Origin: a virus
Reading direction: 5' to 3' (one strand)
IMG/VR virus record: IMGVR_UViG_3300020392_000008
Location: 1 to 64,000 of that record
DNA: 64,000 bases
Of this stretch, positions 1 through 3,186 are shown piece by piece. Both the position numbers and the translations under genes were made by a program. Under the pieces are notes generated by a model. That model saw only the letters and a list, made by a program, of their open reading frames with translations. It made no database searches and was not told the DNA's origin. Positions within the stretch are counted from its first letter, which is position 1; each line of letters begins with the position of its first letter.

Positions 1-57
1 GAACCGATGACCTCCTGCGTGCAAGGCAGGCGCTCTAGCCAGCTGAGCTAATCCCCC
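1..57 (-). tRNA. tRNA-Ala(UGC), 3' end cut by window edge
   Basis: Reverse complement reads GGGGGATTAGCTCAGCTGGCTAGAGCGCCTGCCTTGCACGCAGGAGGTCATCGGTTC: D-arm, anticodon stem CCTGC/GCAGG around TGC, and start of the T-arm (GGTTC). Confidence 0.96.
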
Positions 58-97
58 ATCTATTATTATTTATTTTAAAAACCAATTATGCAGACAT

Positions 98-130
98 AAA
101 AAAAACCCAATTTTAAAAAAAATTGGGTTT
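98..130 (-). terminator. Intrinsic terminator between the putative ncRNA and the tRNA
   Basis: 12-bp inverted repeat aaacccaatttt/aaaattgggttt with a U-tract on the minus strand. Confidence 0.7.
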
Positions 131-141
131 AAATGTAAAAA

Positions 142-561
142 GTGAAAGATGATATGAGAGGATTAAAGATTACCTCCAACATAATCGTTTACTACAAATT
201 ATCGTTGCTTTCTACATTTTCTGTCGAAAACTAACTCATTCTAAATTTGTACTCATTTAAAACATTGCTAGGACCGCTACGGTCTAAGAAACACCTTACC
301 ACGCAAACGTGATGGTTATTCAGTCATTAAATAGGATTTTTGTATTACCTATAAACGATTTGCGAATCTTTTAGATTCTAAGTTATTATGCACCTATATT
401 CTAAGAGCTATCTTAGTTCAACATTCTCATTAGAGTAGGCCCTTGGTATAGGGCTTTAGTTGCGATCCATCGATCTAATATATTCCTTTATAAGCTTCGC
501 TTCACTTATTATTCGGGCACATATCAATGTCATCCATCCGTCGATTTCTGACACCTTTCAC
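142..561 (-). ncRNA. Putative ~420-nt structured non-coding RNA, family unassigned
   Basis: No ORF >=60 aa; ends pair (GTGAAAGGTG/CATCTTTCAC); many internal hairpins; upstream TATAAATA and downstream terminator. Confidence 0.6.
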
Positions 562-585
562 CAATAAATTAAAGAACGTTTATCT

Positions 586-593
586 TATTTATA
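586..593 (-). promoter_or_regulatory. T4-like late promoter TATAAATA upstream of the putative ncRNA
   Basis: Exact T4 late consensus, followed by boxA-like CGTTCTTTAA (578-569). Confidence 0.5.
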
Positions 594-615
594 AAATATA
601 ATACTAAATTTTTTA

Positions 616-837
616 TTAAACTTTAACTTTTTGAGGATAATTTTTATGTAAACATTCAAGTTTATCTTCTGCTTCTGCTAATTTAGTTAAAGCTTCATCT
701 GCATTAGAATAAAAATCCTCTGTTGAATGATCACCGATACCGGCTGCTTTTTCTCCTAAAATATGTAAGCTCATTTTAGCTTTAGCTATTTCAGCTAGAG
801 CCATTGTTTCTAACATAATGTACAATTCTTTTTTCAT
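616..837 (-). CDS. Hypothetical protein
   Basis: 73-aa ORF directly downstream of clpP in the same operon. Confidence 0.75.
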   Translation of the reverse strand: MKKELYIMLETMALAEIAKAKMSLHILGEKAAGIGDHSTEDFYSNADEALTKLAEAEDKLECLHKNYPQKVKV

Positions 838-838
838 A

Positions 839-1417
839 TTAATCTATTATTTCATCTATCACTCCAAATGATAGGGCTTCTTTAGAATCCATGTACCAAT
901 CTTGTTTTGTTTTTAAAATATCTTTTAATTTAGTCTTAGATATTTTAGTTAAATCTAATGTTATGTTTTCAAATTTTTGTTGAAGCCTTTTTGTTTCTTT
1001 ATAACTTTCTTCCATGTCTTGTGTTTTTCCCCAAAAACCAGTAGAAACTTGATGATACATAGGCGTTGCGTGCTTATAAGCAAACCTTTTATGACCTGAT
1101 ATAAGTATCATAAAACCACATGACATAGCGGCACCAGTGGCATAAGTATGCACGGGGGTAACTGATTTTTCCATTATTCCAAGTAGTCCCATACATTGAT
1201 ATACGTATCCACCATAGCTATCTATCATTATTTTTATAGGGCGTCTAACATAATCTATGTCGTAAACTTTATATAGTTTTTCTAAATGTTCATCATCTTC
1301 GTTTATTCTAAGTATATTTCTAGATAAAGTCTCTATTGATTCTAAATTTACGTCCTTTGCAAAAAATAAAGTTCTGTTTAAAGGAAGCGGTAACGTGTTC
1401 ATGTCTGCCATTTTCAT
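839..1417 (-). CDS. clpP: ClpP-like ATP-dependent protease proteolytic subunit
   Basis: IDSYGG, AAMSCG (catalytic Ser), MYHQ (His), DWYMDSKEALSFGVIDEI. Confidence 0.92.
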   Translation of the reverse strand: MKMADMNTLPLPLNRTLFFAKDVNLESIETLSRNILRINEDDEHLEKLYKVYDIDYVRRPIKIMIDSYGGYVYQCMGLLGIMEKSVTPVHTYATGAAMSCGFMILISGHKRFAYKHATPMYHQVSTGFWGKTQDMEESYKETKRLQQKFENITLDLTKISKTKLKDILKTKQDWYMDSKEALSFGVIDEIID

Positions 1418-1557
1418 TGATTATTATTTAATAGTGAAAATAGCAGCGCGCCTAATGATAAAACGACACCTAATACTAATATATCAGGGACTTCTATTAT
1501 GTTACCACTACTAGTTTCACCTAGTTTTATCATAAAATCATGTTGATAATAATTCAT
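1414..1557 (-). CDS. Small membrane protein (47 aa; not in ORF track)
   Basis: Manual translation MNYYQHDFMIKLGETSSGNIIEVPDILVLGVVLSLGALLFSLLNNNQ; fills the gap and overlaps the clpP start by ATGA. Confidence 0.6.
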   Translation of the reverse strand: MNYYQHDFMIKLGETSSGNIIEVPDILVLGVVLSLGALLFSLLNNNQ

Positions 1558-1561
1558 GATA

Positions 1562-1891
1562 TTATTTTAAATCGTTATTTATTCTATCCCACCAATTCAT
1601 TCTTTTAAGTCTTTTGTATATGCCATATGGTTGTAGTAATATTCCAATTAAAAAACCATAAACGGCAATAAAAGTCCCTATGACTGGCCAAATAGGTATC
1701 CATCCTCCCCAATATTCTTCCATTACTGGTCCGGGTACATAAAAAGCCATAAAAAACCCAAATAATGTTCCTATAAACTTTAAAATACCTTGTTTATTAT
1801 TAAAATAATGGTCTGTAAAAACCCACGTTATATAATTTTTTGGTGCATTGCTCATTTTATTATGATTATTTTTTGAACCTATCATAAGCAT
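1562..1891 (-). CDS. Hypothetical membrane protein (2 TM; likely start at MSNAPK)
   Basis: Two hydrophobic segments; operon context. Confidence 0.7.
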   Translation of the reverse strand: MLMIGSKNNHNKMSNAPKNYITWVFTDHYFNNKQGILKFIGTLFGFFMAFYVPGPVMEEYWGGWIPIWPVIGTFIAVYGFLIGILLQPYGIYKRLKRMNWWDRINNDLK

Positions 1892-2900
1892 TATTTGTTA
1901 TCATATCAATGTTAACTGCTCCTATAAAACTACTTAAATTTATAGAATCAGTATAACTCATGGCTGATCTTAAATAATGTTTAAAATTTTCAGTCCAACC
2001 TGAAAGAGTATATTTAACCTGTCTAATTTCAGATATACCCTCTGAGGTTTTTATATTTTGTTTTCCCCATTTTTTTTGAACTTCTTTAGTTGACATTCCT
2101 CTAAAGTTTTTAAATATAGGTCGCCCATCGTTAAACATTTCTAGTGCTTCTTTGTGGGTTAATTCATTTAAACCAGCTGAATATGCTGTTTTAGATTCAT
2201 ATAGACATGGAGCGCAACTTTCTAACGCTTTATTAAAGATAGAACCTAACATAACAAAATCAGCTCCTAAAGCCAAGGCTTTTATTATGTCAGAATATGT
2301 TTTCATTCCACCATCTGCTACTATGTTAGCAGGACTATCTAAAGCCATAGATTCTTGATAGCATTCTTGAATAAGAGAAGCCATTGGATAACCTATGCCG
2401 GTTTGTTGAGTTGTTAAACAACCTGCGCCATTACCAATGCCTACTCTAACTGAATCTGCCCCGGCATTAGATAGTAGAGTATAAGTTTTAGGATGTGCTA
2501 CATTACCAACCATTAAATAAATGTCATCACCGTATTTGTTTTTAATGTTTCTAGTGACTGTTTCTAAATCCTTGATGTGACCATTAGCAATATCTATTAA
2601 GTACCCTGAGTGTTTCTTAAGTTCACCAGAATTAAACATTTTTTCAATATCTCTAAGCGAATACGATTCAATCCCTGAAAATCCCGTCTTTTCACCTCTG
2701 GGTAAACATGCTATGATTTTATTAGAACTAAAAACATGTTCGTTTTGTCTTGATATAACGGTGTCCATTGGAGCCGTTATAATAGGTAAGTTTCCATCTG
2801 GGTAATATATGTCAATATTTTTTCTAGAAGAAATATTTGTTTGAATACTGGGTCTAATTAATATATCATTAAAATCAAACTTTGTACTATTCATATTCAT
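1866..2900 (-). CDS. guaC: GMP reductase / IMP dehydrogenase family, more GMPR-like
   Basis: APMDTV, DIANGH, VGNVA, RVGIGNGAGCLT (catalytic Cys), ADGG, GADFVMLGS, FRGMS..TSEG; no CBS domain and no IMPDH RY dyad. Confidence 0.82.
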   Translation of the reverse strand: MNMNSTKFDFNDILIRPSIQTNISSRKNIDIYYPDGNLPIITAPMDTVISRQNEHVFSSNKIIACLPRGEKTGFSGIESYSLRDIEKMFNSGELKKHSGYLIDIANGHIKDLETVTRNIKNKYGDDIYLMVGNVAHPKTYTLLSNAGADSVRVGIGNGAGCLTTQQTGIGYPMASLIQECYQESMALDSPANIVADGGMKTYSDIIKALALGADFVMLGSIFNKALESCAPCLYESKTAYSAGLNELTHKEALEMFNDGRPIFKNFRGMSTKEVQKKWGKQNIKTSEGISEIRQVKYTLSGWTENFKHYLRSAMSYTDSINLSSFIGAVNIDMITNNAYDRFKK

Positions 2901-3186
2901 CTAGCTTAACTTCATTAATATCTTCTAAGATTGCTATTACTTCATTTGACATTATAACATAATGGGTTTCATCCTTGTATTTTATATCTATCCCAGAGTA
3001 TCTATTACACAAAACTATATCTCCCAGTTTTACTTTCATAGGGTTGTGCGGAGTACCTTCTCCGCATGCAATAACTGTTCCTATATTAGGTCGTTTAACC
3101 GATTTTCCAGGTAGCAGTATACCTGATTTAGTTTTAGTTTCCTTTTCAATTGGTTTAATTAAAATTCTTTCGTATAAGGGTTTCAT
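2887..3186 (-). CDS. groES: Co-chaperonin GroES
   Basis: MKPLYERILIKP..KTKSGILLP, GTVIACGEG, VKLGDIVL. Confidence 0.95.
   Translation of the reverse strand: MKPLYERILIKPIEKETKTKSGILLPGKSVKRPNIGTVIACGEGTPHNPMKVKLGDIVLCNRYSGIDIKYKDETHYVIMSNEVIAILEDINEVKLDEYE

What the first reader, a model, noticed from the sequence alone, without database searches (positions are those of the whole stretch)
98..593. Self-contained ~420-nt structured ncRNA beside the tRNA, with its own late promoter and terminator
Seen: 142-561 has no ORF >=60 aa in an otherwise gene-dense genome. On the minus strand its ends form a 10-bp closing stem (GTGAAAGGTG 561-552 with CATCTTTCAC 151-142). It contains many hairpins: gccct/agggc 439-454, ctaaga/tcttag 401-416, gaatct/agattc 364-378, atagg/cctat 331-352, cacg/cgtg 300-311, gaccg/cggtc 272-284, ttttc/gaaaa 217-230 and gagg/cctc 158-176. 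There is also a long-range 8-bp helix (aaacgatt 353-360 with aatcgttt 183-190). It is preceded by TATAAATA and a boxA-like CGTTCTTTAA, and followed by a terminator. Known: large ornate RNAs such as GOLLD and ROOL occur next to phage tRNA clusters. I see no tmRNA, RNase P or intron hallmarks. Inference: a late-expressed large structured RNA, possibly a new class.
Basis: partly seen in the sequence, partly recalled or inferred. Interest (0 to 1): 0.85.

Follow-up and report, generated by a model that had tools for sequence, protein, structure and literature searches.

The report
Fused double manA-type phage RNA gene
The gene-free stretch is a real, abundantly transcribed, roughly 420-base folded RNA of an uncultured marine giant phage, but it is not a new class: it is two cores of the known manA RNA fused into one chain and locked together by swapped helices.

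Summary
Window 561-142, minus strand, has no conserved ORF and folds far better than shuffles.

It is not a new RNA class. Both halves match Rfam manA (RF01745) over the full model, but below the curated cut-off (36.3 and 31.4 bits against 55.2). That is why a default Rfam scan is blank.

About 30 distinct relatives in uncultured marine viral contigs share one architecture:
- a 5' hairpin;
- helix P1;
- two manA cores whose 'c' helices are strand-swapped between the cores.

On six divergent relatives, 109 pairs are 90% paired and 66 pairs show double changes (0 of 500 shuffles reach this).

Marine metatranscriptome contigs cover only 139-565, at depth 12-53. Flanking genes have depth 0-2.

In close relatives the downstream gene is convergent. 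Here the RNA therefore acts as a free-standing gene, not a 5'-UTR switch, and the neighbouring tRNA is incidental.

A 2026 preprint shows that single manA RNAs self-assemble into RNA-only cages. Whether this fused form assembles is untested.

The scan has found this same kind of RNA before on other DNA.

The parts
587..594 (-). TATAAATA box, a possible promoter element
   Evidence: Read directly. It is not conserved in relative L211 (alignment A1), so the assignment is weak.
567..577 (-). Conserved leader box resembling boxA (the NusB/NusE site)
   Evidence: It matches 10 of 11 positions of the consensus GYTCTTTAANA (bioRxiv 10.1101/091223). L076, L147 and L148 match 11 of 11 (alignment A4). 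It is conserved in position across the family alignment (28 distinct sequences; A2). The count of such matches in the window is not above chance. RNA contigs do not cover it.
142..561 (-). The structured RNA, from the 5' strand of P0 to the 3' strand of P0
   Evidence: Fold z = -5.4. 109 pairs in 22 helices are 90% paired, with 66 pairs changed on both sides. Metatranscriptome contigs span 139-565 only.
553..561 (-). P0, 5' strand (pairs with 150-142)
   Evidence: The helix is kept with different sequences in all relatives.
529..552 (-). 5' inserted hairpin between P0 and P1
   Evidence: It corresponds to the first hairpin of the Rfam manA model.
520..525 (-). P1, 5' strand (pairs with 156-151). 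It closes around both cores.
   Evidence: At least five different paired versions occur in the family.
331..519 (-). manA-like core 1
   Evidence: RF01745 match at 544-321, 36.3 bits, E 4e-8. The homologous core in L005 scores 47.3 bits.
157..326 (-). manA-like core 2
   Evidence: RF01745 match at 353-149, 31.4 bits, E 4e-6 (E 1.1e-7 over the whole contig).
385..391 (-). Swapped helix X, 5' strand (core 1), pairs with 185-179 (core 2)
   Evidence: Many compensatory versions occur.
354..359 (-). Swapped helix Y, 5' strand (core 1), pairs with 206-201 (core 2)
   Evidence: L211 carries a double compensatory change.
137..141 (-). U run directly after P0
   Evidence: Read. The longest RNA contig ends at 139. 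With P0 and P1 it resembles an intrinsic terminator; this is an inference.
96..130 (-). Intrinsic terminator hairpin with U tail
   Evidence: 12-bp stem followed by a U run. In L005, L147 and L148 a different sequence forms a terminator at the same place.
1..57 (-). tRNA gene, cut by the contig end. The anticodon loop reads UGC, so probably Ala.
   Evidence: RF00005, 39.1 bits, truncated at its 3' end. ARAGORN does not call it.
616..837 (-). Upstream 73-aa ORF with no known family (context only)
   Evidence: The same ORF precedes the RNA in L003 and L005.

Best explanation
Window 561-142 (minus strand) is a free-standing gene for a stable RNA of about 420 nt. The RNA is a fused, two-core relative of the manA RNA motif.

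Shown:
- Two manA-type cores lie head to tail inside one pair of closing helices (P0 and P1).
- The two strands of each core's 'c' helix pair with the other core, not with each other (helices X and Y). The halves are therefore interlocked like a domain-swapped dimer.
- The RNA accumulates as a discrete, abundant species in marine metatranscriptomes.
- It is followed by terminator signals.

Inferred:
- It arose by tandem duplication of a manA gene. Right after duplication the swapped and unswapped pairings are equivalent.
- The conserved boxA-like leader recruits Nus factors, which protect the untranslated transcript from Rho and aid folding. The leader is then trimmed back to P0.
- The RNA acts in trans as a folded particle. 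By analogy with single manA RNAs, which form RNA-only pentamer-based rings and cages in vitro, it is probably a building block or scaffold. In this phage it is not a riboswitch for a downstream gene.
For: Identity:
- Both halves match RF01745 over the full model, with E 4e-8 and 4e-6.
- Close relatives give 47.3, 34.5 and 25.9 bits.
- In 34 related viral records, 30 match manA, 16 of them above the cut-off. Eleven records show two adjacent matches.

Architecture:
- P0, the 5' hairpin and P1 are recovered in 25 of 25 distinct sequences.
- On six divergent relatives, 109 pairs are 90.0% paired, against 75% in shuffles and about 41% with slid partners. 66 pairs are changed on both sides against 32.9 expected, and 0 of 500 shuffles reach this.
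- For the swapped helices and P1 on 28 sequences, 82 cells are changed on both sides against 28.6 expected, with 0 of 500 shuffles reaching this.
- Pairing each core's own 'c' strands gives only about 5 bp, against 7-8 bp for the swapped pairing.

Expression:
- RNA contigs from 4 runs cover only 139-565, at depth 12-53. Neighbouring genes have depth 0-2.2.
- DNA runs hold 0.94-0.99 of the sampled words of 1-1500.
- A strain variant in the RNA data changes 275 and 281 together, so the pair is kept.

Stand-alone status:
- Terminators of unrelated sequence follow the RNA in five lineages.
- The downstream gene is convergent in L003 and L168.

Self-assembly in the family: bioRxiv 10.64898/2026.07.01.735769.
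Against: - Both matches are below Rfam's gathering score.
- The RNA evidence comes from assembled contigs of one study (at most three samples). It gives no strand and no exact ends, and one contig runs into unrelated sequence at 565.
- The loop sequences that appear to correspond to the cage-forming kissing loops of single manA are not kept in this clade (read by eye; the loop mapping is my own), so assembly is not implied by sequence.
- In a large T4-like marine group the same RNA always sits upstream of gene 32 on the same strand. That placement is what a cis-regulator would show.
- The boxA match is not above chance within this AT-rich window.
Confidence: 0.68

Rival explanations
1. It is a tandem, cooperative riboswitch. 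Two manA aptamers sense a metabolite and control read-through of the terminator into downstream genes: the tRNA here, and gene 32 in T4-like relatives.
For: manA was first classed as a riboswitch candidate in 5' UTRs (PMC2864571). In the T4-like marine group the double RNA is always 130-170 nt upstream of a gp32-family gene on the same strand. A terminator follows the RNA here.
Against: In L003 and L168 the next gene is convergent, so there is nothing to regulate. The terminator hairpin lies 11 nt beyond P0 and shares no strand with it, and I saw no alternative pairing. Both RNA ends are locked in covarying helices. The RNA is 10 to 25 times more abundant than neighbouring mRNA. Single manA RNAs assemble without any ligand.
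Confidence: 0.14
2. It is a new class of large ornate RNA unrelated to known families.
For: The default Rfam scan reports nothing at this locus. The size and complexity resemble GOLLD or ROOL.
Against: There are two independent full-model manA matches. The exact signature motifs are present in both cores. A graded series of relatives reaches scores above the manA cut-off. No match to GOLLD or ROOL appears up to E = 10.
Confidence: 0.03
3. It has no RNA function: chance structure, a degenerate remnant, or a small protein-coding region.
For: Short ORFs of 20-35 aa exist on both strands.
Against: Covariation is strong. The element is conserved across phages that share little else. Transcripts are discrete and abundant. 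The short ORFs are not conserved as proteins.
Confidence: 0.02

Closest known systems
manA RNA motif (Rfam RF01745; Weinberg et al. 2010, PMC2864571; cryo-EM assemblies in bioRxiv 10.64898/2026.07.01.735769)
   Same: Each half carries the family's conserved modules in the same order:
- the GAAUAA...UAAGG module with its hairpin;
- the three-way junction;
- the terminal hairpin with the GGUA...AAUCC loop;
- a 5' hairpin and a closing helix.

Like manA, it occurs in marine phages.
   Different: - Two cores are joined in one chain inside a single closing helix, with an added outer helix P0.
- The 'c' helix strands are swapped between the cores.
- Core 2 lacks the inner 'c' hairpin.
- Both halves score below the curated cut-off.
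- Here it is a free-standing gene with a terminator, not a 5' UTR element.
- The loop sequences that I map to the published kissing contacts of single manA are not kept in this clade.
ROOL and GOLLD large phage-associated RNAs
   Same: They are large structured RNAs of phages and prophages. They are often near tRNA genes and are thought to act as free-standing, multimer-forming particles.
   Different: There is no sequence or structure match up to E = 10. This RNA is smaller, and its modules are those of manA.
Tandem riboswitch aptamers, such as the glycine riboswitch (review PMC9481103)
   Same: Two homologous folded domains sit in one transcript with inter-domain contacts.
   Different: No ligand, expression platform or regulated gene is evident here. 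The review does not mention manA.
boxA/Nus-factor leaders of rRNA operons and other untranslated transcripts (bioRxiv 10.1101/091223)
   Same: A conserved box matching GYTCTTTAANA sits just upstream of a long untranslated structured RNA.
   Different: Binding is untested. Some relatives lose the critical C at position 4. The box is not covered by the RNA contigs.

Membership tests
manA RNA (RF01745) | Covariance-model score at or above the curated gathering score of 55.2 bits | tested here: not met
   The two halves score 36.3 and 31.4 bits. The E-values are significant, and relatives of the same architecture reach 55-68 bits.
manA RNA (RF01745) | Conserved GAAUAA...UAAGG module enclosing a hairpin | tested here: met
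   Core 2 matches exactly. Core 1 differs by one base at each end. The hairpin covaries.
manA RNA (RF01745) | Three-way junction module following the first module | tested here: met
   Helices Hc, Hd, He and Hf of both cores are 83-100% paired with double changes.
manA RNA (RF01745) | Terminal hairpin with conserved GGUA...AAUCC loop | tested here: met
   Present at 352-331 and 177-157, 100% paired in six relatives.
manA RNA (RF01745) | The 'c' helix is formed by two strands of the same core | tested here: not met
   The strands pair across cores (X and Y).
manA RNA (RF01745) | One closing helix around one core | tested here: not met
   P1 encloses both cores, and an extra helix P0 is added.
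manA RNA (RF01745) | Position in the 5' UTR of a protein gene (cis-regulatory reading) | tested here: not met
   Here a terminator and a tRNA follow. In L003 and L168 the next gene is convergent. The feature is met in the T4-like group, upstream of gp32.
manA RNA (RF01745) | Self-assembly into pentamer-based rings or cages | not testable with these tools
   Known only from cryo-EM of single manA RNAs.
ROOL / GOLLD | Match to the Rfam covariance models | tested here: not met
   No match up to E = 10 in 1-900, and none at gathering score in the window.
Riboswitch (tandem aptamers) | An expression platform that shares a strand with the aptamer, and a regulated downstream gene | tested here: not met
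   The terminator is separate from P0. No co-directional protein gene follows in this clade.
boxA (NusB/NusE site) | Match to the consensus GYTCTTTAANA, including C at position 4 | tested here: inconclusive
   The match is 10 of 11 here and 11 of 11 in three relatives, and its position is conserved. However, the window holds 24 such matches against 30 expected by chance.

The most novel reading that the evidence does not exclude
The fused, strand-swapped double manA is a natural covalent dimer of a cage-forming RNA. In infected cells it would assemble into higher-order RNA-only particles that enclose or scaffold something for the phage. Nus factors recruited by the boxA-like leader would make and fold it, as they do for rRNA. 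This would be the first evidence that manA self-assembly contacts matter in vivo. It would retire the riboswitch reading of the family.
Probability: 0.22. Interest if true: 0.85.

Novelty: new variant of a known kind. Interest (0 to 1): 0.6.

Why it matters
manA has been an orphan 'riboswitch candidate' since 2010, and in 2026 it was reported to build RNA-only cages in vitro. This work describes a widespread, abundantly expressed, free-standing double form with interlocked halves. It carries an rRNA-like leader box and its own terminators.

That argues that at least this branch of the family works as an RNA particle and not as a gene switch. It also provides a defined natural construct for testing assembly: window 565-137 and its relatives.

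The case also shows that default Rfam thresholds miss this branch entirely.

Tried and rejected
- **blastn against cultured phages.** Neither this RNA nor a T4-like-group representative found anything. No isolate can be named.
- **More distant ClpP-linked relatives.** L006, L007 and L009-L014 lack any manA match near the gene or elsewhere in their contigs. This is absence in fragments only.
- **RNAduplex energies, cognate against non-cognate flanks.** Uninformative, because all flanks are AU-rich.
- **Longest-helix control across clades.** It separated only weakly, 7.6 against 5.8 bp. I relied on positional covariation instead.
- **RNAalifold on MAFFT alignments.** It recovered only part of the structure because variable regions are misaligned.
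- **Custom covariance model.** I did not build one.
- **tRNA adjacency as a family trait.** Only 5 of 55 canonical cyanophage manA loci have a tRNA within 500 nt.
- **boxA enrichment in the window.** Not above chance.
- **Conserved small ORF.** Rejected.
- **Kissing-loop complementarity between the two cores.** Inspected by eye only. It was suggestive in L147 and L148 and in the T4-like group, and absent in this clade. It is not used as evidence.
- I redid it with coordinates.
- **RNA contig ends.** Those at 565/562 and 139 come from one study and are only a weak hint of the true ends.

Full report
**Where the window lies**

The window is the first 64 kb of a 105-kb uncultured virus contig from marine metagenomes. 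CheckV estimates it as 41% complete. The neighbouring ClpP-like protease is closest to proteins of uncultured huge phages.

**Checking the observation**

- Region 142-561 holds no ORF longer than 35 aa.
- As RNA, the minus strand folds at -125.8 kcal/mol with z = -5.4. The plus strand gives z = -2.8.
- A terminator-like hairpin with a U tail lies at 130-103 on the minus strand.
- A tRNA, cut by the contig end, lies at 57-1.

**Identity**

The default Rfam scan reports only the tRNA. With E-value thresholds, two matches to manA (RF01745) appear on the minus strand, each over the full 192-position model:
- 353-149, at 31.4 bits and E 4e-6;
- 544-321, at 36.3 bits and E 4e-8.

Both are below the gathering score of 55.2 bits.

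In close relatives found through the neighbouring ClpP gene, the two halves of L005 score 47.3 and 25.9 bits, and core 2 of L003 and L004 scores 34.5 bits.

I then searched viral contigs for the junction between the end hairpin of one core and the start of the next. After filtering, 35 loci (34 held records) were put to the manA model. They are AT-rich and come from uncultured virus records.
- 30 of 34 held records match manA.
- 16 match above the cut-off.
- 11 show two adjacent matches.

The RNA is therefore a divergent, doubled member of a known family, not a new class. No match to GOLLD, ROOL or any other large RNA family appeared.

**Anatomy**

Alignment of 30 relatives shows a common plan (A2). 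When the two cores are replaced by a tetraloop, the 5' and 3' flanks of all 25 distinct sequences fold into the same three-way junction. It consists of:
- an inserted hairpin (552-529);
- P1 (525-520 with 156-151).

P0 and P1 have quite different sequences in different lineages.

They are.
- The 5' strand of core 1 (391-385) pairs with the 3' strand of core 2 (185-179). This is helix X.
- The 3' strand of core 1 (359-354) pairs with the 5' strand of core 2 (206-201). This is helix Y.
- X and Y form 7-8 bp helices with many compensatory versions. The same-core pairings reach only about 5 bp.
- L211 changes both sides of one Y pair.

It is slightly favoured by energy for this one sequence. It may be a clade-specific alternative.

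**Formal pair counts**

| Test | Cells paired | Controls | Double changes | Covariation score |
|---|---|---|---|---|
| 109 pairs in 22 helices, six divergent relatives | 90.0% | 75.2% shuffled; 37-45% slid | 66 pairs against 32.9 expected; 0 of 500 shuffles as high | 0.539 against 0.255 |
| P1, X and Y, 28 distinct sequences | 85.9% | 72.6% shuffled | 82 cells against 28.6 expected; 0 of 500 shuffles as high | 0.358 against 0.145 |

The second test reached these values even though six rows are misaligned by MAFFT.

**Expression**

Four marine metatranscriptome runs (one study, at most three samples) hold contigs that cover only:
- 139-565
- 176-565
- 222-562
- 260-530

Their word depth is 12-53. 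The flanking protein genes have depth 0-2.2, and 1-138 and 566-700 have none.

DNA runs hold 94-99% of the sampled words across 1-1500. The contrast therefore argues for a discrete, abundant RNA whose ends coincide with P0.

A strain variant in two of the RNA runs changes 275 and 281 together. This keeps a base pair in the hairpin at 272-284.

These are assembled contigs. Strand and exact ends are not shown, and one contig leaves the window at 565 into unrelated sequence.

**Context**

The RNA follows a 73-aa ORF of no known family and the ClpP-like gene. What lies downstream differs between close relatives:
- a terminator and the tRNA here;
- a convergent tail-sheath-like gene of about 978 aa in L003 and L168;
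- an RNase T-family exonuclease gene in L005.

Terminators of unrelated sequence follow the RNA in five lineages.

In a large T4-like marine group, the same double RNA lies 130-170 nt upstream of a gp32-family gene, which is followed by a RecA-family gene.

Only 5 of 55 canonical cyanophage manA loci have a tRNA within 500 nt. The tRNA next door is therefore incidental.

**Leader**

The only conserved block outside the fold is a box 6-15 nt upstream of P0 (window 577-567).
- It matches the published boxA consensus at 10 of 11 positions here.
- It matches 11 of 11 in L076, L147 and L148.
- Within this AT-rich window such matches are not enriched: 24 found against 30 expected.

The case for function therefore rests on conservation of position alone. 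The TATAAATA box is not conserved.

**Mechanism**

A 2026 preprint reports that single manA RNAs assemble without protein into pentamer-based decamers and a 60-subunit cage. The contacts are kissing loops. I found no mention of a fused or tandem form in that preprint, in the original description (including the supplementary files held as text), or in a review of tandem riboswitches.

My preferred reading is this:
- A tandem duplication produced two identical cores, whose 'c' strands could pair either way.
- The swapped pairing became fixed, giving a covalent, interlocked dimer.
- The dimer acts as a free-standing RNA particle.

The steps from 'folded stable RNA' to 'assembles' and 'what it does for the phage' are inference. 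The riboswitch reading keeps some weight because of the constant position before gene 32 in the T4-like group.

**Earlier notes of this scan**

The scan has reached the same conclusion on other DNA several times. I reached the manA identity and found the preprint independently, before opening those notes. The swapped-helix test was prompted by one of them and is confirmed here.

Noticed in passing
L142, L155, L179 and relatives; alignment A2 columns about 535-560: In the T4-like marine group a conserved motif of about 17 nt lies 25-40 nt downstream of the double RNA and upstream of the gp32-family gene. It is neither a clear hairpin nor a known promoter.
   Followed up: no
L160:3049-3813, L178:2159-3262: In the T4-like group the double manA RNA always precedes a gp32-like ssDNA-binding gene (PF08804) and then a RecA/UvsX-like gene (PF00154). 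This is where T4 has its gene 32 translational operator.
   Followed up: partly
window 565: One metatranscriptome contig of 1217 nt matches 287-565 and then continues into unrelated sequence. It could be a relative with another upstream context or an assembly chimera.
   Followed up: no
window 183-206: Core 2 carries the same 6-nt word twice (206-201 and 189-184). Core 1's strand 360-353 therefore has two possible partners. This could allow two conformers in this clade.
   Followed up: partly
PMC2864571, supplementary manA alignment: The flanking sequences of two of the three manA entries shown look like tRNA genes, and in one of them a terminator hairpin is annotated between the manA and the tRNA-like stretch. 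Read by eye only.
   Followed up: no
L006, L007, L011, L013 (contigs of 125-294 kb): More distant giant-phage relatives share the ClpP-like gene but have no detectable manA-type RNA anywhere in their contigs. Carriage of the RNA is patchy.
   Followed up: partly
window 839-3186, minus strand: The RNA sits after a run of host-like genes: a ClpP-like protease (839-1417), a 344-aa ORF (1866-2900) and a 99-aa ORF (2887-3186). By eye these two ORFs resemble a GMP reductase/IMPDH-type enzyme and GroES. Neither was tested.
   Followed up: no
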